A DNA stretch of 60,874 nt from a virus. The stretch lies in the IMG/VR virus record IMGVR_UViG_3300045988_147447; one strand, written 5' to 3'. Positions 1 to 60,874 of this stretch are shown piece after piece. The translations under genes and the position numbers were made by a program. How positions within the stretch are numbered: position 1 is the stretch's first letter; every line of letters begins with the position of its first letter. The notes beneath the pieces are model-generated. The model worked only from the letters and a program-made list of their open reading frames with translations. It was not told where the DNA came from and ran no database searches.

Positions 1-36
1 TGAGTAAGTCGCGGGTTCGAGTCCCGCTTTCGGCTC
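1..36 (+). repeat. attL core: 3-prime end (variable loop, T-arm, acceptor strand) of a host tRNA gene whose 5-prime part lies left of the window
   Basis: Bases 1-36 tgagtaagtcgcgggttcgagtcccgctttcggctc are identical to 60839-60874. They contain the T-arm GCGGG-TTCGAGT-CCCGC. The integrase gene starts 105 bp to the right. Confidence 0.85.
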
Positions 37-141: not shown

Positions 142-1416
142 GTGAGTATCCCTGGAGTATCCTTAAATTTTTTAATCATTATGGCAACTCTATCACTTAC
201 CATTTTCAAGGCAAAAGCATTAAAAGACGGAAGACATAAGATAAGAATTGCACTCCGTCACAAGCATGAAACAACATATATCGTCACACGATTCATTATT
301 TCAGAGAACCAGTTTAAGAACGGTCAGGTCGTGAAGCATCCAGAGGCATCTGCGATAAACCGGAAACTTAGGAACATCCTTGATGACCTTCAAGAGAAAC
401 TGGACTCAATAAAACATCTTGAACTTTATTCCTGCCGGCAAATTAAAGAAATCATTTCTACAGACAATCTTTCCGATGAGCAAACCTTTTCATCAGCATG
501 TAGCAATTTTGTAGACTATCTCAAGTCTGAGGGAAGAGATTCATACGCATTATCTATTGAAAGGGTGGGGAGATATTTTCGTGACTTTGCAAGAGGTGAC
601 ATACTTCTCTCTGATTTAACCCCGTCACTAGTCCAGAATTTTGCCGCATTCATACGGAAGCGGAAAGTGACTGAAACTACAGTAAACACAATGCTTGCCC
701 AAATGAAATCTGTCGTCAATAGAGCGATAAGAGAGTGGAATATATCTTACGATATACATCCTTTTGTAACGACTAGAATATCTGCAGCCCCTATCAGGAA
801 GCTTGATCTGACAGTACAGAATTTTAACAAGATTCGTGAATCTTCACCAGAAAAGAGAAAGCTGATTATGGCACGTGACCTTTTTTGCCTTTCCTTTTAC
901 TTGGGAGGGATGAATCTTATAGACATTATGCAAACAGACTTTAGAAAAGATGTATTGGAATATTCACGCTCAAAGACTAAAGGGCGAATGCAGTCGGATA
1001 GTGTAATCACATTTACAATACCGTCTCAAGCAAGAGAGATAATATGCAGGTGGATGGATAAAAGGACGGGGAAACTTGATTTTGGGTATAAATTCACATA
1101 TCACAACTTTTCTCAGTATGTTACGTATTCTCTTGGAGATTTGGCTGAAGAGTTAAATATTGATGAACGTGTTACATTTTATTCGGCCCGCAAGTCTTTC
1201 GCTCAGTACGCCTCTGAAATAGGTATTCCTGACGGGATAATAGACTACTGCTTAGGCCACTCAGACAAATCAAAAGGAGTTATACGATACTACACCAAAG
1301 TCCGGCAGAAACAGGCTGATATGGCCATATCTCGTGTGATTGATTACGTGAACAACCCGGAAAAGTACAAAGAATATATCGAACTGAGGTCTGATATTAT
1401 GATGATGAGAGGGTAA
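142..1416 (+). CDS. int: tyrosine-type phage integrase
   Basis: 424 aa next to attL. C-terminal catalytic region reads ARDLFCLSFYLGG ... YSARKSFAQYA ... LGHSDKSKGVIRYY (R..R..H..Y pattern). GTG start. Confidence 0.85.
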   Translation: MSIPGVSLNFLIIMATLSLTIFKAKALKDGRHKIRIALRHKHETTYIVTRFIISENQFKNGQVVKHPEASAINRKLRNILDDLQEKLDSIKHLELYSCRQIKEIISTDNLSDEQTFSSACSNFVDYLKSEGRDSYALSIERVGRYFRDFARGDILLSDLTPSLVQNFAAFIRKRKVTETTVNTMLAQMKSVVNRAIREWNISYDIHPFVTTRISAAPIRKLDLTVQNFNKIRESSPEKRKLIMARDLFCLSFYLGGMNLIDIMQTDFRKDVLEYSRSKTKGRMQSDSVITFTIPSQAREIICRWMDKRTGKLDFGYKFTYHNFSQYVTYSLGDLAEELNIDERVTFYSARKSFAQYASEIGIPDGIIDYCLGHSDKSKGVIRYYTKVRQKQADMAISRVIDYVNNPEKYKEYIELRSDIMMMRG

Positions 1417-1918: not shown

Positions 1919-2998
1919 CTAATCATTTTTTATATCTATGGATTTATATAATCTGCTTAGAAACTCATAAGATACATATTCGTTCTTAACTGGATTTTGT
2001 TGTAAAGTTGAAGGGAAACTTATGTATTCCATACGTGATATATTATTTATATTTTCTTTCAATCTTATATCTTTTAGTTCAAGGTTATTGAATAAATCTG
2101 CATCTAAATATAATTGTCGGGTTTTGTTGTTTGACAAAGAACTAAAAGAGTTAAAGAATAAAAGTACGAGTTCATCTTTTGATAATTGAGCACGGAATAT
2201 ATCTGAATACTTTTTAGGATAGTTGAATCCTGAGACCATTTCCAGAATATAATAAGCGTTTCTAAAATATGTACCAAGTTGATTTATATATTTAGAAAAA
2301 CAAAAGTCAGCAGTTTTCGATATAGCTTCTATTATTGGTTTAAAGTTATTCTGTTTAAGATAAGTTCTTATAGCTATTAAGCAAATATAATCGTATGTAT
2401 TTAAATTAATAGGTATTTGATTAACAACGCCTCCAGATTTACTCCAATTATATCCGTTATAAATATTATTTATAGCAATTGCTAAATAATTGTATGAAGA
2501 ATACCATTGTATTGTAGATCTATTTGATGGAATGATTTCTTTTGCGAATTCCTCTTTGGATAAATAGTTTGGTATATTATTTCTTATTTCTACGTAAAAT
2601 ATACAACATAATTCAAAAGTTATTTGTTGATAAGTCTTTTCAGTAGTACAAAATTCCTCATATTGAATAATGTTCCAATCATGAAGTGTTTTATCATATT
2701 TCCAATCTATTTTTTTTACACGTAATGAATCACGATAAGAAATGAATATTTTAAGCATTTCAAAGAATGTAGATCTTTCCTCACTATTCAAAAACTGCTG
2801 TTTATTTTGTTTTGATGTGTATAATACTCCGATAAATGCTATTAACCCTGTAATAGCTCCAAGGATACTTCCAAAATCACCCCAATGAAATTTACTCCTT
2901 TCTGAAATAAAAAAACAGCATAAAATAGAGAATGCTATTATTGATATGGTAATTATCCATGATCTTTCATTTTTTATATACTTCTTCAATCTTCTCAT
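1919..2998 (-). CDS. membrane-anchored protein, putative abortive-infection protein (putAbiC-like)
   Basis: 359 aa in a very AT-rich moron between int and the lysis genes. Two N-terminal TM helices flank HWGDFGSILGAITG, which resembles the GDxxGG motif I recall for Pfam putAbiC. Named from memory only. Confidence 0.45.
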   Translation of the reverse strand: MRRLKKYIKNERSWIITISIIAFSILCCFFISERSKFHWGDFGSILGAITGLIAFIGVLYTSKQNKQQFLNSEERSTFFEMLKIFISYRDSLRVKKIDWKYDKTLHDWNIIQYEEFCTTEKTYQQITFELCCIFYVEIRNNIPNYLSKEEFAKEIIPSNRSTIQWYSSYNYLAIAINNIYNGYNWSKSGGVVNQIPINLNTYDYICLIAIRTYLKQNNFKPIIEAISKTADFCFSKYINQLGTYFRNAYYILEMVSGFNYPKKYSDIFRAQLSKDELVLLFFNSFSSLSNNKTRQLYLDADLFNNLELKDIRLKENINNISRMEYISFPSTLQQNPVKNEYVSYEFLSRLYKSIDIKND

Positions 2999-35489: not shown

Positions 35490-36551
35490 ATGAAACTGAA
35501 AAGTCTCGAATATGTTACACCTGGATGGTCTTTAGATGGTCTCAATTTGTCAGAAACAAGTCTCATCGTAGGCCGTAATGCTGTTGGAAAATCAAAAACA
35601 ATAGAAGCCTTAAATTCTTTAGTCTCTGTTATACTCCAAACTAAAGAAATTGCTGAGCACGATAATTTTTTCTATAAAATTATTTTTTCAGACAATGATA
35701 CAGAATTGACATATTCATTTGCATGTTTTCAAGGGAATATTACCTTGGAACAGCTAATTGATCATAACGAAAACATCTTAATAGAAAGGAATGAAAACTC
35801 TACTATCTTTTTTAACGACGAAATTAACCCTCCAAGTAATAAACTTACAATCAATGTAAGACGAGATACAAAATTATATCCTCAAATTGAAAAAATAGTA
35901 AATTGGGCTGAAAATTCATATGGGATATTATTTAATCAGATTAATATGTTTCCTAATGGTACCAACCTATTTAGTACTATGTCTAAAGGAGAAAGTATTA
36001 TCCCAATGTTTGAAAAATTAAATGATGATTTGAAACTAAAGGTTCAGGAGGAACTAAATGCTTTAGATTATTCTATTGACGAAATAAAGATTGTAAAAAT
36101 TGGAGATGAGAAATCTGATATAAGAGTCTTACAGATTAATGAAAAAGATGTAAGCACATTTTTATGGGAAGGATTGTTATCTCAAGGAATGCAAAGAACA
36201 CTATACATTCTTGTTCTTTTATTCTATATTGTTTCTCAAAAAAAGAAGACACAGACAATTGTTATTGATGATTTTTGTGAGGGATTAGATTATGATAGAT
36301 CCATAAAATTAGGTAAATACCTATATAAATTCTGTTTAGAAAATAATATACAATTAATTACTACTTCAAACGATAGTTTTTTAATGGACGTTGTCGATTT
36401 GAAATATTGGAATATTTTACAACGTAAAGGCGATAAAGTTACTGCAATAAATATATATAATTCTCCTGAATTATTTGAAGATTTTGAATTTACAGGACTT
36501 AATAATTTTGATTTATTCTCATCTGATTTTATTGCACGACATAAAAAATGA
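35490..36551 (+). CDS. ABC/SMC-type (AAA_21-like) ATPase
   Basis: Walker A VGRNAVGKSKT, signature-like LSQGMQR, Walker B/D-loop TIVIDDFCEGLD. Confidence 0.7.
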   Translation: MKLKSLEYVTPGWSLDGLNLSETSLIVGRNAVGKSKTIEALNSLVSVILQTKEIAEHDNFFYKIIFSDNDTELTYSFACFQGNITLEQLIDHNENILIERNENSTIFFNDEINPPSNKLTINVRRDTKLYPQIEKIVNWAENSYGILFNQINMFPNGTNLFSTMSKGESIIPMFEKLNDDLKLKVQEELNALDYSIDEIKIVKIGDEKSDIRVLQINEKDVSTFLWEGLLSQGMQRTLYILVLLFYIVSQKKKTQTIVIDDFCEGLDYDRSIKLGKYLYKFCLENNIQLITTSNDSFLMDVVDLKYWNILQRKGDKVTAINIYNSPELFEDFEFTGLNNFDLFSSDFIARHKK

Positions 36552-37270
36552 AGAAAGTAGCAGTTTTTGTAGAAGGACAAGCTGAATTAATTTTGGTCAG
36601 AGAATTACTTCTAAAGATGTACGACTACCAAGATATAGGAATCAATTGTTATAACCTGATTTGTGATAATCTGGATGAAGCTCCTTATCAATATGGTGAT
36701 AAAATGGCTCATAACTATTATATGCTTGTAAATGTTGGTAATGACAACTCTGTATTATCTAAAATCTTTACTAGAGCAAATGGATTGCATGAAAAGGGAT
36801 TTACCAAGATTATAGGGTTAAGAGATGTATATGGGGACTTTTACAAGAAAAAAAATAGAGGCGTAAGAAATATAAACTTAGAATTAATTGAAAAATTTAG
36901 AAATTCAGCTCAAAAGGAAATAGACGCTAAAAACCTGGCTCAATATATAAAATTACATTTTGCAATAATGGAGGTTGAAGCATGGTTTTTAGGATTTAAC
37001 ATATTTGAACGTATTGATGGCACATTGTCAAATGATTTTATTAAGTCTAAGCTAAATTATGATTTGGAGAATGATGATCCAGAGATTACCTATTATCATC
37101 CAGCAAGAATTATGGGAGATATTTATGGCCTGATTGGATCAAAATATGACAAACATGAAAGTGATGTATCCTCCCTTGTGAGTTGTCTTGAAAAAGAAGA
37201 TTATAATAACTTAATAGAAAGTGTTAAATGCTCAACATTTACATCTTTCGTTCAAGAATTGCTAAATTGA
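36548..37270 (+). CDS. TOPRIM/OLD-like nuclease candidate (DUF4276/DUF4435-like)
   Basis: The N-terminus VAVFVEGQAELILVREL carries a TOPRIM-type glutamate strand. Later motifs are IIGLRDVYGD and MEVEAWFLG. ATGA overlap with the ATPase gene. Confidence 0.5.
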   Translation: MKKVAVFVEGQAELILVRELLLKMYDYQDIGINCYNLICDNLDEAPYQYGDKMAHNYYMLVNVGNDNSVLSKIFTRANGLHEKGFTKIIGLRDVYGDFYKKKNRGVRNINLELIEKFRNSAQKEIDAKNLAQYIKLHFAIMEVEAWFLGFNIFERIDGTLSNDFIKSKLNYDLENDDPEITYYHPARIMGDIYGLIGSKYDKHESDVSSLVSCLEKEDYNNLIESVKCSTFTSFVQELLN

Positions 37271-56319: not shown

Positions 56320-56395
56320 CTGGCAGAACGGGACTCGAACCCGTGACTTCCATGCTAACCCTTACATGGTGTTCTACCGCCTGAACTATCTGCCA
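56320..56395 (-). tRNA. phage-encoded tRNA with a non-canonical 10-nt (or 6 bp plus 8 nt) anticodon loop; isotype undetermined
   Basis: TGGCAGA-TA-GTTC-AGGCGGTA-GAAC-A-CCATG-TAAGGGTTAG-CATGG-AAGTC-ACGGG-TTCGAGT-CCCGT-TCTGCCA-G. All four stems pair perfectly. Confidence 0.7.
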
Positions 56396-56923: not shown

Positions 56924-57299
56924 AACCGTGTGTATTAAATATCGTTCCCGTGGGCGTTCCGGTGGTTGCCTTACTGCTTATCAAAGGTCTGGTAAGCCAC
57001 GGGTATATATAGTTCATGCTGGTGTCTAATCAGTGAAGATTGTCTTTGTAGCCGACCTACGGCCACCTGCAATCGTATAAGTGTCTTTTTGTTATCTGTG
57101 TGATTCGTATGCTGCGTTTGCTTAGTGCAGCCCTTTACTCATACTCTTTTCACACAGCCGTTATCGCTACTCAGTCGTCCGTTTCACGTCAGGCTTAACG
57201 GTAAGCCTAAATTTCCATCATGTCAAAGAACCAATCAAGTAGAACCCTGCCCGATTCTCGCTATCGGTTGCCGTTCAGTCCGTCAGCAGGGTAGGTGAG
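56924..57299 (-). ncRNA. ORF-free, GC-richer, hairpin-dense region: candidate structured RNA
   Basis: Minus-strand helices: ACCCTGC/GCAGGGT enclosing CCGAT/ATCGG; AGGCTTA-ccgt-TAAGCCT; GCCG-taggt-CGGC; CCCGTGG/CCACGGG enclosing CTTAC/GTAAG. No plausible ORF. Confidence 0.35.
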
Positions 57300-57554
57300 T
57301 TACCAGCGTGTAACTGCCATGCCTTGTGATAACTGAAGGTTAATGTAGTCCATGCCATCATCTTCAGGCAGGTTGTATTCTTCAAGAAGGGCTTCGTATT
57401 TGTCCACCTCTTCAGTAAGTACTTTGATGTATTCTTGCTTGCTGTCAGCATTGAAAGCCCTGCATAAAGTCTCTTCATCTGCGTTGTAGGCGAAGTTCAG
57501 GTCTTTGTACAGCCCGTCAAGTTCTTCTTCGATTTCGTGGCGTGTCATAGTCAT
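57300..57554 (-). CDS. hypothetical acidic protein
   Basis: 84-aa ORF with a 4-nt overlap with the upstream gene. Confidence 0.5.
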   Translation of the reverse strand: MTMTRHEIEEELDGLYKDLNFAYNADEETLCRAFNADSKQEYIKVLTEEVDKYEALLEEYNLPEDDGMDYINLQLSQGMAVTRW

Positions 57555-57874
57555 GCGGCGATGTTTAAAAGGTTAGCTTTCTTGAAGCATCTGTATTCTT
57601 GTCTCTCAGTATCGAAGTACACCTGAACAGTGTCATTCTTCTTTCTGCTTTCACCAGATGTGGCTGGTATCAGATTTTCTTTCAGCGTGCCGTAGGCTTC
57701 ACGAACAGAACCATCTACCTTTTTGAAGTAGAACTTTACGATTCTTTGCTTCATGGCAGCTTTCAGCTTCATGTTTGCCCAAGCGCATTTCATCGCTTCA
57801 CTCATAGAGAAACCGTTTCTCTTTACCAACTGCCATGCAAGGCTCATAATCTCGTGTAATAAATTCTTTTTCAT
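57551..57874 (-). CDS. first early-leftward gene: SH3-barrel-type (DUF2693/WYL_2-like) protein, paralog of 33697..34023
   Basis: 107 aa, divergent from cI across the operator region. Confidence 0.6.
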   Translation of the reverse strand: MKKNLLHEIMSLAWQLVKRNGFSMSEAMKCAWANMKLKAAMKQRIVKFYFKKVDGSVREAYGTLKENLIPATSGESRKKNDTVQVYFDTERQEYRCFKKANLLNIAA

Positions 57875-57955
57875 AATCGTGTGAGGGTTAGTTGTTTTTT
57901 ACTATATTTGTTTCGTACCTAAGTTTCGATATGCAAATGTACTAATATTATTGAT

Positions 57956-58031
57956 ATATCACTGATATTACAGTGAAAATATCAGTGATATTAACTTTAT
58001 TTTAGTTTTACCGAAATAATATTACTGATAT
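57956..58031. promoter_or_regulatory. immunity operators: three copies of the 13-bp palindrome ATATCA-N-TGATAT
   Basis: atatcactgatat at 57956-57968, atatcagtgatat at 57979-57991, and atattactgatat at 58019-58031. The last has 1 mismatch and overlaps the cI ATG. Confidence 0.6.
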
Positions 58032-58668
58032 GTACGATTTAAAAGGATTCAGACAAGCATTTGGACTTACCCAAAAGAATATTGCTGATATTCTTGAATG
58101 TGGTCAAGCTAATGTTTCAGGTATGGAAAAGTCTATGAGGGATTTAGAACCTGAACAATATAGAAAGTTGTGTGCTCGATTTGATGCAGCCTCTGTTGAC
58201 AAGTTTAAGGTCTCAGATTTTATCATTGATAATAAGAAAACAGAAACTGAACCTGTAATAAGTTATACTAATGGTGTACCTTACTATAATGTAGATTTCA
58301 TAGGAGGATTTGATATTGTCCTAAATGACCAGACTGCAAAGCCGGAATACTTGATAGACTTTAAGAAATACAATGAAGCTACTTGCTGGTGTAATGTTAC
58401 AGGCCATTCAATGGAACCTGAGATAACTCATGGAGATATTATTGCGTTAAAGAAAATAGAAGATAAGTCTTTTCTTCCATTAGGTGAAGTGTATGCAATA
58501 GTGACAACCAACGGAATGCGAACAATCAAGAGATTAGGCCCTTCAACCGATCCGAAATGCTATACGCTGGTTCCTACAAATAAATCTCCGGAATATGGTA
58601 TTCAGGAACTTCCTAAGAATATGATAGAACATATATATCAAGTTCTTGGCTGTATGAAAAGATTATAA
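58030..58668 (+). CDS. cI: CI-type repressor (XRE HTH plus S24 LexA-like peptidase)
   Basis: HTH FGLTQKNIADILECGQANVSGMEK. S24 Ser/Lys dyad context VTGHSMEPEITHGDIIALKK ... MRTIKRL. Confidence 0.85.
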   Translation: MYDLKGFRQAFGLTQKNIADILECGQANVSGMEKSMRDLEPEQYRKLCARFDAASVDKFKVSDFIIDNKKTETEPVISYTNGVPYYNVDFIGGFDIVLNDQTAKPEYLIDFKKYNEATCWCNVTGHSMEPEITHGDIIALKKIEDKSFLPLGEVYAIVTTNGMRTIKRLGPSTDPKCYTLVPTNKSPEYGIQELPKNMIEHIYQVLGCMKRL

Positions 58669-58677
58669 ATAATTTAT

Positions 58678-59739
58678 ATGAATTTATATATGGTAAATAT
58701 TACTGCAGAACTAAATGACCAAAAGCGAAAAGTAGATTTTAATTCTTATGATATGAGTGTAAAAGAATTAATATCTATGGTCAATGACAATATTATAGAT
58801 ATTGCACCAGAATACCAAAGGCAATTTAGATGGGATGATTCTAGACAATCTGCACTGATTGAGTCTATTTTTTTAGGTATTCCTGTTCCCTCATTGTTTA
58901 TGGCAACAAATAATGATGGGACTTGGGAGGTAATTGACGGGGTGCAGAGACTTAGTTCTATCATTAACTTCGCTGCAGATGCAATTTCTGCTGCAAGGGC
59001 CAAAATCAATCGGGATATTCCGCTTACTTTATGTGAATTAAAAAAATTGGAAAGTTTTAATGGTTTAAGATTCCCCGATTTACCTCGATCTCTCCAGATT
59101 GACTTCTTGTTGAAACCCATAAAAATTACGACATTAAGTGATAAAAGTGATAAATCTGTAAGATTTGATTTGTTTGAAAGATTAAATACAGGAGGAATTA
59201 AATTATCAGACCAGGAAATCAGAAGTTGTATTTATCGTGGAAGGTTCAATGATTTTATTAAAGCCCTTTCTGAAAATCCATCTTTTAATTCTGTAATAAA
59301 GCTATCAAAATCTTCTGAAAATGATGGAACAAAAGAAGAGTTGATATTAAGGTTTTTTGCTTATCTTAATGGTAGAGATAAGTTTGAACATAGCGTTGTT
59401 GGATTTTTAAATGATTATATGGAAAGTGCAAGCAGAAATTTTGATTATAATAATAATGAAAGAATTTTCTGTAGAACTTTTGAGGAGTTAGCACGGTTAG
59501 ATCACGGAATAGTAAAAACAAGAACTCGTTCTGTTACCTCTATTATATTATTTGAAGCTGTTAGTGTTGGTGCTGCAGAAGCTATCAAAGAACAAGATCA
59601 GATTAATCTTGATGGTTTTTATCAATGGGTGATGAATAGAGATTTTAATAATCTTATAACGGGGGCTACCAATACAAAGAACCGTGTCAATTCTAGAATA
59701 GAATACTGCAAAAATAAATTTTTAGAAGAGAATGTTTAG
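58678..59739 (+). CDS. DUF262 (ParB/Srx-fold, GmrSD-N-terminal-type) protein
   Basis: APEYQRQFRWDDSRQSALIESIFLGIPVPSLF and WEVIDGVQRLSSI (DGQQR-type motif). 353 aa. I see no His-Me/DUF1524 motif. Confidence 0.65.
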   Translation: MNLYMVNITAELNDQKRKVDFNSYDMSVKELISMVNDNIIDIAPEYQRQFRWDDSRQSALIESIFLGIPVPSLFMATNNDGTWEVIDGVQRLSSIINFAADAISAARAKINRDIPLTLCELKKLESFNGLRFPDLPRSLQIDFLLKPIKITTLSDKSDKSVRFDLFERLNTGGIKLSDQEIRSCIYRGRFNDFIKALSENPSFNSVIKLSKSSENDGTKEELILRFFAYLNGRDKFEHSVVGFLNDYMESASRNFDYNNNERIFCRTFEELARLDHGIVKTRTRSVTSIILFEAVSVGAAEAIKEQDQINLDGFYQWVMNRDFNNLITGATNTKNRVNSRIEYCKNKFLEENV

Positions 59740-60388
59740 TGACATTAATGCTGAATCAACTAGAAGATTAACAGAAGCCAAATCTTTAGTACTATTAATT
59801 AAAAATGAAGATTTGATGCGGTCATTAAATTTAGATTCTAAGGTACATAAAGGTGCATTCTTTGTGTTATTATATGGGGCTTTAGAATATACGATTACTG
59901 CAGTTGTGCAAAGATGTATTAGTATCTTAAATAAAAGACAATATGACATACATGCATTGAAACCAACATTATATTCGCTTATATTTCACAAAGAATGTAA
60001 CGCTATAATGGATGCAAGGGATAAAAAATGGACTAAAAGATATGAATTATTTTCTCAGCTTGGAGGAACTAAAATAGCAAACATTGAAGATTGTTTGTTT
60101 CCTACAAGTATTGGCAATATAAAATATAGTCAATTAGAGTCCATCTGGAATACTTTTGGGATTACTCATGATGTCGTTACAGATGTAAAAATTAAAGGAC
60201 GACTTGCAGCTTTAGCTGATAATCGAAATGCAATAGCACATGGAAGAGAATTGGCCTCTGTTATAGGAGGACGATATACAATCAGTGAAATAGAATGCAT
60301 TTATAATGATATTAATACATACTGCAGTTATATCATTACAGTTTTTGAAGACTATATAACAAATGAAATGTATTTAATCGGCCATTAA
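59732..60388 (+). CDS. HEPN-like nuclease (R-x4-H)
   Basis: ALADNRNAIAHGRE contains RNAIAH. 218 aa. Overlaps the DUF262 gene by 8 nt. Confidence 0.55.
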   Translation: MFSDINAESTRRLTEAKSLVLLIKNEDLMRSLNLDSKVHKGAFFVLLYGALEYTITAVVQRCISILNKRQYDIHALKPTLYSLIFHKECNAIMDARDKKWTKRYELFSQLGGTKIANIEDCLFPTSIGNIKYSQLESIWNTFGITHDVVTDVKIKGRLAALADNRNAIAHGRELASVIGGRYTISEIECIYNDINTYCSYIITVFEDYITNEMYLIGH

Positions 60389-60402
60389 TAAAATTCTGTG
60401 TT

Positions 60403-60741
60403 ATGAGAAAAATATTATTGACTATACTGGCAATATCATTGTTTGGCTGCGGAGGGAACAAGCCGTCCCAGGAACAGAAGGATAAAGCTGACAGATACGT
60501 CCAAAGTCTCGTGGATGCCGATATAGGAATCTACAAAGGCGAACTGACCGACGCAAACTTTCTCATCCTTGCCGTAGACGCTTATTCTGGAGCAAACTTT
60601 GATGCTTATGCACGTACATACCTGGAAGAAGCACAAGGTAAAGGACTGGAGATAAAAGGAGTCTATATTGTAGACATCAAGAACTGCCAGTTCGGCGATG
60701 GCTGGGTATCCGGTGACAGGATAGGGAAGGCATTCAAGTAG
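60403..60741 (+). CDS. small lipoprotein
   Basis: Signal plus lipobox ISLFGC. 112 aa. Last gene before attR. Confidence 0.6.
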   Translation: MRKILLTILAISLFGCGGNKPSQEQKDKADRYVQSLVDADIGIYKGELTDANFLILAVDAYSGANFDAYARTYLEEAQGKGLEIKGVYIVDIKNCQFGDGWVSGDRIGKAFK

Positions 60742-60838: not shown

Positions 60839-60874
60839 TGAGTAAGTCGCGGGTTCGAGTCCCGCTTTCGGCTC
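60839..60874 (+). repeat. attR core: duplicated tRNA 3-prime fragment
   Basis: Identical to 1-36. The preceding sequence is not tRNA-like, so this copy is the displaced partial tRNA end. The repeat may extend beyond the window. Confidence 0.85.

What the first reader, a model, noticed from the sequence alone, without database searches (positions are those of the whole stretch)
58030..60741. Lysogen-expressed cI-DUF262-HEPN-lipoprotein operon at attR (rexAB-like position)
Three low-GC genes run co-directionally with the CI repressor, starting 10 bp downstream of it. The first is a 353-aa DUF262 protein with YQRQFRW and DGVQRLSS motifs, the ParB/Srx-fold NTPase domain found at the N-terminus of GmrSD/BrxU-type modification-dependent nucleases. 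I can find no DUF1524 His-Me motif in it. The second is an 8-nt-overlapping 218-aa protein with a HEPN R-x4-H motif (RNAIAHG). The third is a 112-aa lipoprotein. The architecture suggests a split system in which a HEPN (typically RNase) effector replaces the DNase half of GmrSD. Transcription with cI is how lambda rexAB and other prophage exclusion systems are deployed. I recall that HEPN proteins of this type are often annotated next to DUF262 genes. I do not know of a characterised defence phenotype for this pair.
Basis: partly seen in the sequence, partly recalled or inferred. Interest (0 to 1): 0.7.

Follow-up and report, generated by a model that had tools for sequence, protein, structure and literature searches.

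The report
Prophage-borne PD-T4-2-like DUF262–HEPN defence pair
A gut Bacteroidales prophage carries, directly behind its repressor gene, a two-gene DUF262 + HEPN module that is a diverged relative of the experimentally validated E. coli anti-phage system PD-T4-2, so it is a new example of a known kind of defence system and not a new kind.

Summary
The four co-directional ORFs, the gene spacings (9-nt gap, 8-nt overlap, 14-nt gap), the motifs and the attR position are all real. The window is a complete prophage bounded by a perfect 36-nt direct repeat. The 353-aa protein has a DUF262 (ParB/Srx-fold) domain with all three signature motifs, followed by an all-helical C-terminal domain. It has no DUF1524 His-Me nuclease. 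The 218-aa protein is a RiboL-PSP/MAE_28990-family HEPN with a conserved RNxxxH motif. The two genes are an obligate pair: adjacent in 79/79 informative genome loci and 77/78 informative viral loci, and they co-diverge (rho 0.85). DUF262 + RiboL-PSP HEPN is the architecture of PD-T4-2 (Vassallo 2022), which protects E. coli against T4. I retrieved the E. coli locus: the A proteins are 31% identical (E 2e-37), while the B proteins share only the catalytic motif and the Pfam family. PADLOC's PD-T4-2_B models miss this subfamily. Placement directly after a cI-type repressor recurs in at least 28 of 80 viral loci, which supports expression in lysogens. The lipoprotein is cargo of this phage lineage only. 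Verdict: new member of a known kind, moderate-to-low interest.

The parts
1..36 (.). attL core: 36-nt direct repeat resembling a tRNA 3' end (T-arm plus acceptor)
   Evidence: Identical to 60839-60874; sequence read.
142..1416 (+). Tyrosine integrase. Context only: it marks the attL end of the prophage.
   Evidence: Pfam Phage_int_SAM_5 1.9e-15, Arm-DNA-bind_5, Phage_integrase.
57943..58033 (.). Immunity switch region with 3-4 operator-like palindromes ATATCAsTGATAT (57956, 57979, 58019; a weaker copy at 57943), between the divergent WYL_2 early gene (57551-57874, minus strand) and cI
   Evidence: Repeat analysis. TAnnTTTG -7-like boxes at 57903-57910 (+) and 57934-57941 (-), but the motif is not enriched in the window overall, so promoter assignment is inference.
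58030..58668 (+). cI-type repressor (N-terminal HTH plus C-terminal S24 autopeptidase)
   Evidence: Pfam Peptidase_S24 3.6e-11, HTH_3 0.0074; PHROG phrog_4 transcriptional repressor 1.2e-18.
58678..59739 (+). Component A: DUF262 (ParB/Srx-fold NTPase, motifs QRxxxW, DGxQR, FxxxN) plus an all-helical ParBDB-like C-terminal domain; no DUF1524. Predicted sensor and NTPase.
   Evidence: Pfam GmrSD_N 4.9e-30. PADLOC NsnA 2e-70 and PD-T4-2_A 6e-53, both full length. phrog_2598 8e-104. BLASTP to E. coli PD-T4-2A: 31% identity, E 2e-37. AF2 model: no strands in residues 189-349, with pLDDT about 74-97 there. Foldseek top hits BrxU, ParB and SspE. Motifs invariant in the family alignments.
59732..60388 (+). 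Component B: stand-alone HEPN (RiboL-PSP / MAE_28990 family) with R165-x4-H170 (RNAIAH). Predicted RNase effector; its start overlaps the end of A by 8 nt.
   Evidence: Pfam PF18735 3.1e-15 and PF18737 5.7e-10. R165 and H170 conserved in >=90% of 79 partners. Rx4H present in 154/155 partners. AF2 pLDDT 94.3, all-alpha. BFVD match to a phage MAE_28990-like HEPN, TM 0.69-0.72.
60403..60741 (+). BDI_0842-family lipoprotein (lipobox LFGC). It is cargo of this phage lineage and not part of the conserved two-gene module.
   Evidence: Pfam PF21903 4.4e-42. Present after the pair only in the same phage lineage (L083-L088; L095/L096). GC 0.454.
60839..60874 (.). attR core: second copy of the 36-nt repeat

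Best explanation
Genes 58678-59739 and 59732-60388 form a PD-T4-2-type two-gene anti-phage module carried as a moron in the immunity operon of a Bacteroidales temperate phage. SHOWN: component A has a DUF262 domain with intact NTP-binding motifs and a helical C-terminal domain of the kind called ParBDB in NsnA, and it has no nuclease domain. Component B is a RiboL-PSP-family HEPN with a conserved Rx4H motif. The two genes overlap, are always adjacent across many phyla, and co-diverge. A distant homologue of the same architecture, PD-T4-2, defends E. coli against T4. INFERRED: A acts as the sensor. It binds incoming phage DNA, possibly modified DNA as in GmrSD, BrxU and SspE, and uses NTP binding or hydrolysis to release or activate B. 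B dimerises to form the composite HEPN RNase site and cleaves RNA, which stops phage production, probably by growth arrest or abortive infection. ALSO INFERRED: the pair is transcribed from the cI maintenance promoter, because there is only a 9-nt gap and no terminator. It would then be on in lysogens, excluding superinfecting phages in the way lambda rexAB does, and would decline when cI is cleaved on induction, sparing the phage's own replication. The downstream lipoprotein is separate cargo of this lineage.
For: Domains. Absence of a nuclease: no GmrSD_C hit and an all-helical C-terminal half. ParB/BrxU/SspE fold. Motif conservation: QRxxxW and DGxQR in 155/155 A proteins, Rx4H in 154/155 B proteins. 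Obligate pairing: 79/80 genome loci and 77/80 viral loci, with gaps mostly -7 to +6 nt. Co-divergence: Spearman 0.85. Pfam PF18735 in 78/79 partners. Homology to the validated system: the E. coli locus was retrieved through the published lambda-red primer; A is 31% identical, E 2e-37; E. coli PD-T4-2B is itself a PF18735 member (31.4 bits, cut-off 28.4) with an RNAAAH motif; deleting PD-T4-2 in ECOR65 restores T4 plaquing, and an H127A mutant was built as one of the four site-directed mutants said to abolish protection (PMC9519451). Defence-island and mobile-element context of distant members: next to GmrSD, EVE-HNH, Type III R-M, Mrr and AbiEii; in a P4 hotspot; at the end of a P2-like phage genome. 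Repressor-adjacent placement: S24 in 25 and Phage_CI_repr in 3 of 80 viral loci, across cI proteins only about 15-24% identical to this one, plus Moraxella Mcat28. Same four-gene layout in 90%-identical relatives. No terminator-like site inside the operon.
Against: There is no functional data for this subfamily. The B protein cannot be aligned to PD-T4-2B beyond the catalytic motif (BLASTP E 0.017; hhalign probability 1.8%). PADLOC's three PD-T4-2_B models hit only 1 of 79 partners, at 2e-3. A scores higher on the NsnA (Menshen) model than on PD-T4-2_A. The mechanism of PD-T4-2 itself is uncharacterised in the literature I could search, so the sensor/effector roles, RNA as the target and abortive infection are all inference. 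The most conserved stretch of A (residues 154-187) is modelled with pLDDT below 50. Co-transcription with cI rests only on spacing; the promoter scans are uninformative for Bacteroidetes.
Confidence: 0.75

Rival explanations
1. The pair is a prophage addiction or toxin-antitoxin module. The HEPN protein is a constitutively toxic RNase that the DUF262 protein neutralises, and the pair mainly stabilises the prophage or mobile element and does not sense phages.
For: HEPN toxins with a cognate neutraliser are well known, for example HEPN-MNT, and the weak Foldseek hits of B are to HEPN toxins. The genes are tightly coupled in translation and always co-inherited. The pair lies on mobile elements.
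Against: A is much more conserved than B (mean pairwise identity 0.43 against 0.24) and keeps invariant NTPase motifs, which is unlike a typical fast-evolving antitoxin. A is encoded upstream and is larger than the putative toxin. The homologous PD-T4-2 gives a phage-defence phenotype in its native strain. One locus (L090) keeps A next to a truncated 99-aa downstream ORF, which is the opposite of what addiction predicts.
Confidence: 0.1
2. The pair is a DNA-targeting type IV-like restriction system. The DUF262/ParB-fold protein itself nicks or cleaves (modified) phage DNA, and the HEPN protein is an accessory or regulatory subunit and not the effector.
For: The 2013 HEPN survey calls the partner a 'ParB nuclease'. 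The nearest folds are those of the GmrSD-family enzymes BrxU and SspE. PD-T4-2 was selected on T4, whose DNA is glucosyl-hmC.
Against: No recognised nuclease domain or His-Me finger is present. In GmrSD, BrxU and SspE the DUF262 domain is described as the NTPase/sensor and DUF1524 as the nuclease. The HEPN Rx4H motif is conserved in 154/155 partners, and the H127A mutant of PD-T4-2B is listed among the catalytic-residue mutants that abolished defence.
Confidence: 0.1
3. The locus is a degenerate or partial Menshen (NsnABC) system, given that NsnA is the best PADLOC hit.
For: PADLOC NsnA 2e-70 over residues 16-346.
Against: No NsnB ABC ATPase or NsnC gene follows; the next gene is a HEPN in 156 of 160 loci examined. 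The bona fide PD-T4-2A also hits the NsnA model at 1.6e-58, so that model simply recognises the shared DUF262+ParBDB architecture.
Confidence: 0.02

Closest known systems
PD-T4-2 (Vassallo et al. 2022, E. coli ECOR65; PADLOC PD-T4-2_A/_B)
   Same: It is a two-gene operon: a DUF262 protein of about 350-365 aa without DUF1524, followed directly by a small stand-alone HEPN of Pfam PF18735 with an RNxxxH motif. The A proteins are homologous over most of their length (31% identity, E 2e-37; PADLOC 6e-53). Both are carried on mobile elements, a P4-like satellite hotspot in E. coli and a prophage here.
   Different: B is 218 aa here against 167 aa in E. coli, and only the catalytic motif can be aligned. 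PADLOC's B models do not detect this subfamily. A scores 178 bits on PD-T4-2_A, against 538 bits for the real protein. This subfamily's A protein is unusually conserved, at 47-73% identity across at least a dozen phyla. Here the pair sits inside a cI operon.
Menshen NsnA (Millman 2022; Li et al. 2025, PMC12065111)
   Same: NsnA has the same two-domain architecture, ParB-DUF262 plus a helical ParBDB domain, with the motifs QRxxxW, DGxQR and FxxxN. It is the best PADLOC hit (2e-70).
   Different: Menshen needs an NsnB ABC ATPase and an NsnC inPIN-nuclease effector. Neither is present here; a HEPN protein takes their place.
GmrSD / BrxU / SspE (type IV, modification-dependent enzymes)
   Same: They share the DUF262 NTPase/sensor domain and the following helical domain, and they are the best structural matches (BrxU probability 0.93).
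   Different: Those enzymes are single polypeptides of 560-820 aa with a C-terminal DUF1524 His-Me nuclease that cuts or nicks DNA. Here the nuclease is absent and a separate HEPN, usually an RNase, is the partner.
Lambda rexAB and other repressor-operon exclusion genes
   Same: They occupy the same position and follow the same logic: accessory genes directly downstream of, and co-directional with, cI, and therefore expected to be expressed in lysogens. This placement recurs in other phage lineages.
   Different: There is no sequence or domain relationship to RexA/RexB. The resemblance is positional only, and the comparison rests on established knowledge of lambda, not on a test done here.
ParB-HEPN operons noted by Anantharaman et al. 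2013 (PMC3710099)
   Same: [quoted passage not shown] This is the same gene pair. A C5 DNA methylase sits upstream in 8 viral loci.
   Different: That was a purely computational note, with no phenotype and no description of the prophage cI context.

Membership tests
PD-T4-2 | Component A: a DUF262 protein homologous to PD-T4-2A and lacking DUF1524 | tested here: met
   PADLOC PD-T4-2_A 6e-53 over residues 27-348. BLASTP to the retrieved E. coli PD-T4-2A: 31% identity over 235 aa, E 2e-37. No GmrSD_C hit.
PD-T4-2 | Component B: an adjacent downstream small HEPN protein homologous to PD-T4-2B | tested here: inconclusive
   Both B proteins belong to Pfam PF18735 (3.1e-15 here; 2.3e-7 for E. coli PD-T4-2B) and carry the same RNxxxH motif. 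Direct comparison is not significant (E 0.017; hhalign probability 1.8%), and the PADLOC B models hit 1 of 79 partners.
PD-T4-2 | Protection against phage that depends on the HEPN catalytic histidine | not testable with these tools
   This is known only for the E. coli system (PMC9519451).
GmrSD / BrxU / SspE | A C-terminal DUF1524 (His-Me finger) nuclease fused to or paired with DUF262 | tested here: not met
   No PF07510 hit at E<=1. The AF2 model has no beta-strands in residues 189-349. The neighbouring gene is a HEPN.
GmrSD / BrxU / SspE | A DUF262 domain with the QRxxxW, DGxQR and FxxxN motifs | tested here: met
   Q47-R48...W52, D87-G88-x-Q90-R91 and F166...N170 are invariant in 61 sequences. 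QRxxxW and DGxQR occur in 155/155 proteins.
Menshen (NsnABC) | An NsnA-like gene followed by an NsnB ABC ATPase and an NsnC effector | tested here: not met
   The NsnA-like architecture is present, but the downstream genes are a HEPN and a lipoprotein. The same holds in 156 of 160 related loci.
HEPN superfamily (active RNase type) | An all-alpha fold with a conserved Rx4-6H motif | tested here: met
   R165 and H170 are conserved in >=90% of partners. Rx4H is present in 154/155. The AF2 model is all-helical with pLDDT 94. Pfam HEPN families match. RNase activity itself was not tested.
HEPN-MNT toxin-antitoxin | A partner gene encoding an MNT nucleotidyltransferase antitoxin | tested here: not met
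   The partner is DUF262; there is no NTase domain in any operon gene.
Lysogen-expressed exclusion genes in the cI operon (rexAB-type deployment) | Location directly downstream of and co-directional with the repressor, with no intervening terminator | tested here: met
   9-nt gap. No terminator-like site between 58030 and 60741. The layout recurs in close relatives and in at least 28 of 80 viral loci.
Lysogen-expressed exclusion genes in the cI operon (rexAB-type deployment) | Demonstrated co-transcription with cI in the lysogen | not testable with these tools
   No expression data are available.

The most novel reading that the evidence does not exclude
This deeply conserved DUF262-HEPN subfamily (A proteins 47-73% identical across at least a dozen phyla; found in about 480 of 185,579 species genomes and 162 viral contigs) may be a functionally distinct defence family that is currently not annotated, and not merely a PD-T4-2 orthologue. 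It might sense a different trigger, for example unmodified or replicating phage DNA. Temperate phages may have wired it repeatedly into cI operons, so that immunity is on in lysogens and is switched off automatically on induction to avoid self-targeting.
Probability: 0.2. Interest if true: 0.5.

Novelty: new member of a known kind. Interest (0 to 1): 0.3.

Why it matters
The result extends an experimentally validated but mechanistically uncharacterised E. coli defence system, PD-T4-2, to a much larger and more conserved subfamily. That subfamily is common in gut Bacteroidales prophages and in many other phyla, and at least one standard annotation resource (the PADLOC v2 B-component models) does not detect it. 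It also documents that temperate phages from unrelated lineages repeatedly place this pair directly behind their repressor. That arrangement gives a natural setting for studying prophage-mediated superinfection exclusion in the gut microbiome. It does not reveal a new kind of system.

Tried and rejected
(1) Menshen was rejected. NsnA is the top PADLOC hit, but there is no NsnB or NsnC, and the true PD-T4-2A hits the same model.
(2) An ordinary GmrSD was rejected, because there is no DUF1524 by Pfam or in the model.
(3) Dazbog and other DUF262 systems gave no PADLOC hit beyond weak N-terminal matches to SspE, HEC-05/06 and Orf5.
(4) A blastn search of the Buttiauxella homologue pair against 5,426 complete E. 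coli genomes found nothing. PD-T4-2 was reached instead through the published lambda-red primer.
The DUF262 model is mediocre as a result (pLDDT 77, with residues 154-187 below 50).
(6) A Foldseek search of the HEPN model against the PDB gave no significant match; only one BFVD phage HEPN matched.
(7) A PDB sequence search with the family profile found only short motif-level matches to DUF262 proteins.
(8) The sigma-70 promoter scan does not suit Bacteroidetes. The Bacteroidetes -7 motif TAnnTTTG is not enriched in the window (67 matches against 60 expected), so no promoter could be assigned with confidence.
(9) A near-identity search of the phage collection found no described phage that carries this immunity region.
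(10) Searches for a mechanistic study of PD-T4-2, or for another characterised DUF262+HEPN pair, found none.
Full report
OBSERVATION. All are on the + strand. They are separated by a 9-nt gap, an 8-nt overlap and a 14-nt gap. The quoted motifs (YQRQFRW, DGVQRLSS, RNAIAHG) are present.

Pfam confirms each assignment. The repressor matches Peptidase_S24 (3.6e-11) with a weak HTH. The 353-aa protein matches GmrSD_N/DUF262 (4.9e-30, residues 30-186). The 218-aa protein matches HEPN_RiboL-PSP (3.1e-15) and HEPN_MAE_28990 (5.7e-10). The lipoprotein matches BDI_0842 (4.4e-42). No DUF1524/GmrSD_C match appears even at E<=1.

The window is one complete prophage. Bases 1-36 are identical to 60839-60874, a repeat that looks like a tRNA 3' end, and a tyrosine integrase lies at 142-1416. 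The operon therefore does abut attR.

One detail is wrong. The DUF262 gene (GC 0.315) and the HEPN gene (0.301) are low in GC, but the lipoprotein gene (0.454) is above the prophage mean of 0.40.

THE PAIR IS A CONSERVED MODULE. The DUF262 protein has thousands of relatives and is unusually conserved, at about 60% identity to proteins of Bacillus, Paenibacillus and Flavobacterium. The HEPN partner diverges much faster.

A scan of one genome per species found 480 genomes with a relative. Among the best 80 loci, which by record title span at least a dozen phyla, 79 have a HEPN homologue of 213-237 aa immediately downstream on the same strand. The spacing is usually -7 to +6 nt. The single exception is a 1.85-kb truncated contig.

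In viral contigs, 162 carry a relative. Of the best 80, 77 have the HEPN partner, and two of the three exceptions are cut at the contig end.

Across 155 pairs, A-A and B-B identities correlate strongly (Spearman 0.85), with B evolving about twice as fast. Rx4H is present in 154/155 B proteins. QRxxxW and DGxQR are present in 155/155 A proteins. Pfam PF18735 is found in 78/79 partners. An exhaustive profile search finds 1,291 50%-identity clusters of the HEPN partner. All of the top 150 are stand-alone proteins of about 215-235 aa or fragments; none is a fusion.

STRUCTURE. The AF2 model of A has mean pLDDT 77. It shows an N-terminal alpha/beta ParB-like domain and an all-helical C-terminal half (residues 189-349). 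Most of that half has high pLDDT and it contains no beta-strands, so there is no His-Me finger. Foldseek's best PDB matches are BrxU (probability 0.93), ParB CTPases and SspE. This agrees with the 'ParB-DUF262 + ParBDB' description of NsnA (PMC12065111). The stretch 154-187, which holds the invariant FDLFERLNTGG motif, is poorly modelled.

The model of B has pLDDT 94 and is all-helical. It has no significant PDB neighbour. It does match a phage 'MAE_28990-like HEPN' in BFVD with TM 0.69-0.72.

WHAT IT IS. PADLOC matches A full-length to NsnA (2e-70) and to PD-T4-2_A (6e-53). Menshen is excluded because no NsnB or NsnC is present.

PD-T4-2 is listed by its discoverers as 'DUF262, HEPN'. Their HHpred table gives PF18735 and PF18737 as the top hits for PD-T4-2B, the same two families found here (PMC9519451). 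Deleting PD-T4-2 from ECOR65 restores T4 plaquing. A PD-T4-2B H127A plasmid is listed among the catalytic mutants, and its primer encodes RNAAA[H>A].

Using the published lambda-red primer I retrieved the E. coli locus. It is present in 17 of 5,426 complete genomes and lies in the psu-int hotspot of a P4-like satellite at ssrA. The window's A protein is 31% identical to PD-T4-2A over 235 residues (E 2e-37). The B proteins share only the L..L..RNAxAH segment (E 0.017; hhalign probability 1.8%). Even so, E. coli PD-T4-2B is itself above the Pfam PF18735 threshold (31.4 bits against 28.4).

As a calibration, the real proteins score 2e-162 and 8e-64 on their PADLOC models. Only 1 of 79 partners from this subfamily touches a PD-T4-2_B model, at 2e-3. 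The locus is therefore a diverged relative with the same architecture, and PADLOC v2 would probably not call it.

The ParB-HEPN operon association was already noted computationally in 2013 (PMC3710099, Table 1). Reviews already describe PD-T4-2 as a DUF262 system without DUF1524 (PMC10952713). I found no mechanistic study of PD-T4-2.

CONTEXT AND DEPLOYMENT. Relatives at about 90% identity sit in the same phage lineage with an identical layout: WYL_2 (minus strand), then cI, DUF262, HEPN and the BDI_0842 lipoprotein. The lipoprotein is found after the pair only in this lineage, so it is separate cargo.

Distant members sit in defence islands or mobile elements. In B. cereus the pair lies beside a full-length GmrSD, an EVE-HNH protein and a C5 methylase. 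In Bacteroidetes MAGs it lies between a Type III R-M system and Mrr/AbiEii. Other examples lie on a relaxase-bearing element and at the end of a P2-like coliphage genome.

Among the 80 viral loci, the ORF directly upstream and co-directional is an S24 repressor in 25 and a Phage_CI_repr protein in 3. These repressors are only about 15-24% identical to the one here. Moraxella phage Mcat28 shows the same order, S24/HTH repressor then DUF262 then HEPN, with the same 8-nt overlap, although its DUF262 protein is only 32% identical. The 'rexAB-like position' is therefore a recurrent feature and not an accident of this phage.

The switch region upstream of cI carries three to four palindromic ATATCAsTGATAT sites. 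No terminator-like site lies within the operon. Promoters could not be assigned. Co-transcription therefore remains an inference from geometry.

MECHANISM (inferred). In GmrSD, BrxU and SspE the DUF262 domain is the NTPase/sensor that licenses a nuclease. By analogy, A most likely recognises incoming phage DNA through its DUF262 and ParBDB domains and then activates or releases the HEPN dimer through nucleotide-dependent changes. The composite Rx4H site of that dimer would cleave RNA and stop phage production.

There are three rivals. One is a TA-like addiction module. Another is a system in which A itself is the DNase. The third is a Menshen remnant. They are less likely for the following reasons:
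- A is more conserved than B.
- The HEPN catalytic motif is nearly universal and is needed in PD-T4-2.
- The gene content excludes Menshen.

VERDICT. However, the system belongs to a known and experimentally validated kind, PD-T4-2 (DUF262 + RiboL-PSP HEPN). What is new is modest: a large, very conserved subfamily that is poorly annotated, and its repeated insertion behind prophage repressors. I rate the novelty as 'new member of a known kind' and the interest as 0.3.

Noticed in passing
window 56320-56395 (-): A phage-encoded tRNA (Rfam RF00005, 52 bits). ARAGORN reports a four-base anticodon 'gggt', that is an enlarged anticodon loop, and cannot assign an amino acid. It could be a degenerate tRNA or a frameshift-suppressor-like tRNA.
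   Followed up: partly
window 57244-57292 (-): A strong match to the Rfam DUF2693-FD sRNA motif (76 bits against a gathering score of 44.5), in the early leftward operon just downstream of the 84-aa ORF 57300-57554.
   Followed up: no
window 35490-37270 (+), perhaps from 34529: A second low-GC (0.296) defence-like island, on the opposite strand to the genes flanking it. It comprises an ABC/AAA_21 ATPase (PADLOC AbiLi 7.5e-22, AriA 7.7e-13) overlapping a DUF4276 protein (HEC-01B 1.2e-5). This is an AbiL/HEC-01-like ATPase plus TOPRIM-like pair.
   Followed up: partly
window 1919-2998 (-): A 359-aa protein with a putAbiC domain (Pfam 1.5e-11; PADLOC AbiP 6e-5) and the lowest GC of the genes checked (0.261), next to the integrase at attL. 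It is a third candidate exclusion gene in the same prophage.
   Followed up: partly
window 57943-58033: Three to four copies of the palindrome ATATCAsTGATAT lie between the divergent WYL_2 gene and cI, and the last copy overlaps the cI start codon. They are probably repressor operators.
   Followed up: partly
L174 (E. coli 2009C-3133, NZ_CP013025.1 3553868-3555503): The bona fide PD-T4-2 sits in the psu-int variable hotspot of a P4-like satellite integrated at ssrA. It is present in only 17 of 5,426 complete E. coli genomes.
   Followed up: partly
L128-L134, L136 (viral contigs): In a more distant DUF262-HEPN clade (about 32% identity), a C5 cytosine DNA methylase lies directly upstream and co-directional in 8 loci. 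This echoes the 2013 note of 'ParB nuclease and DNA methylase' operons and hints at a link to DNA modification.
   Followed up: no
L090 9029-9328: One genomic locus, on a relaxase-bearing element, keeps an intact DUF262 gene followed by only a 99-aa ORF where the HEPN should be. This is apparently a decayed partner, next to a RelA_SpoT-domain gene.
   Followed up: no
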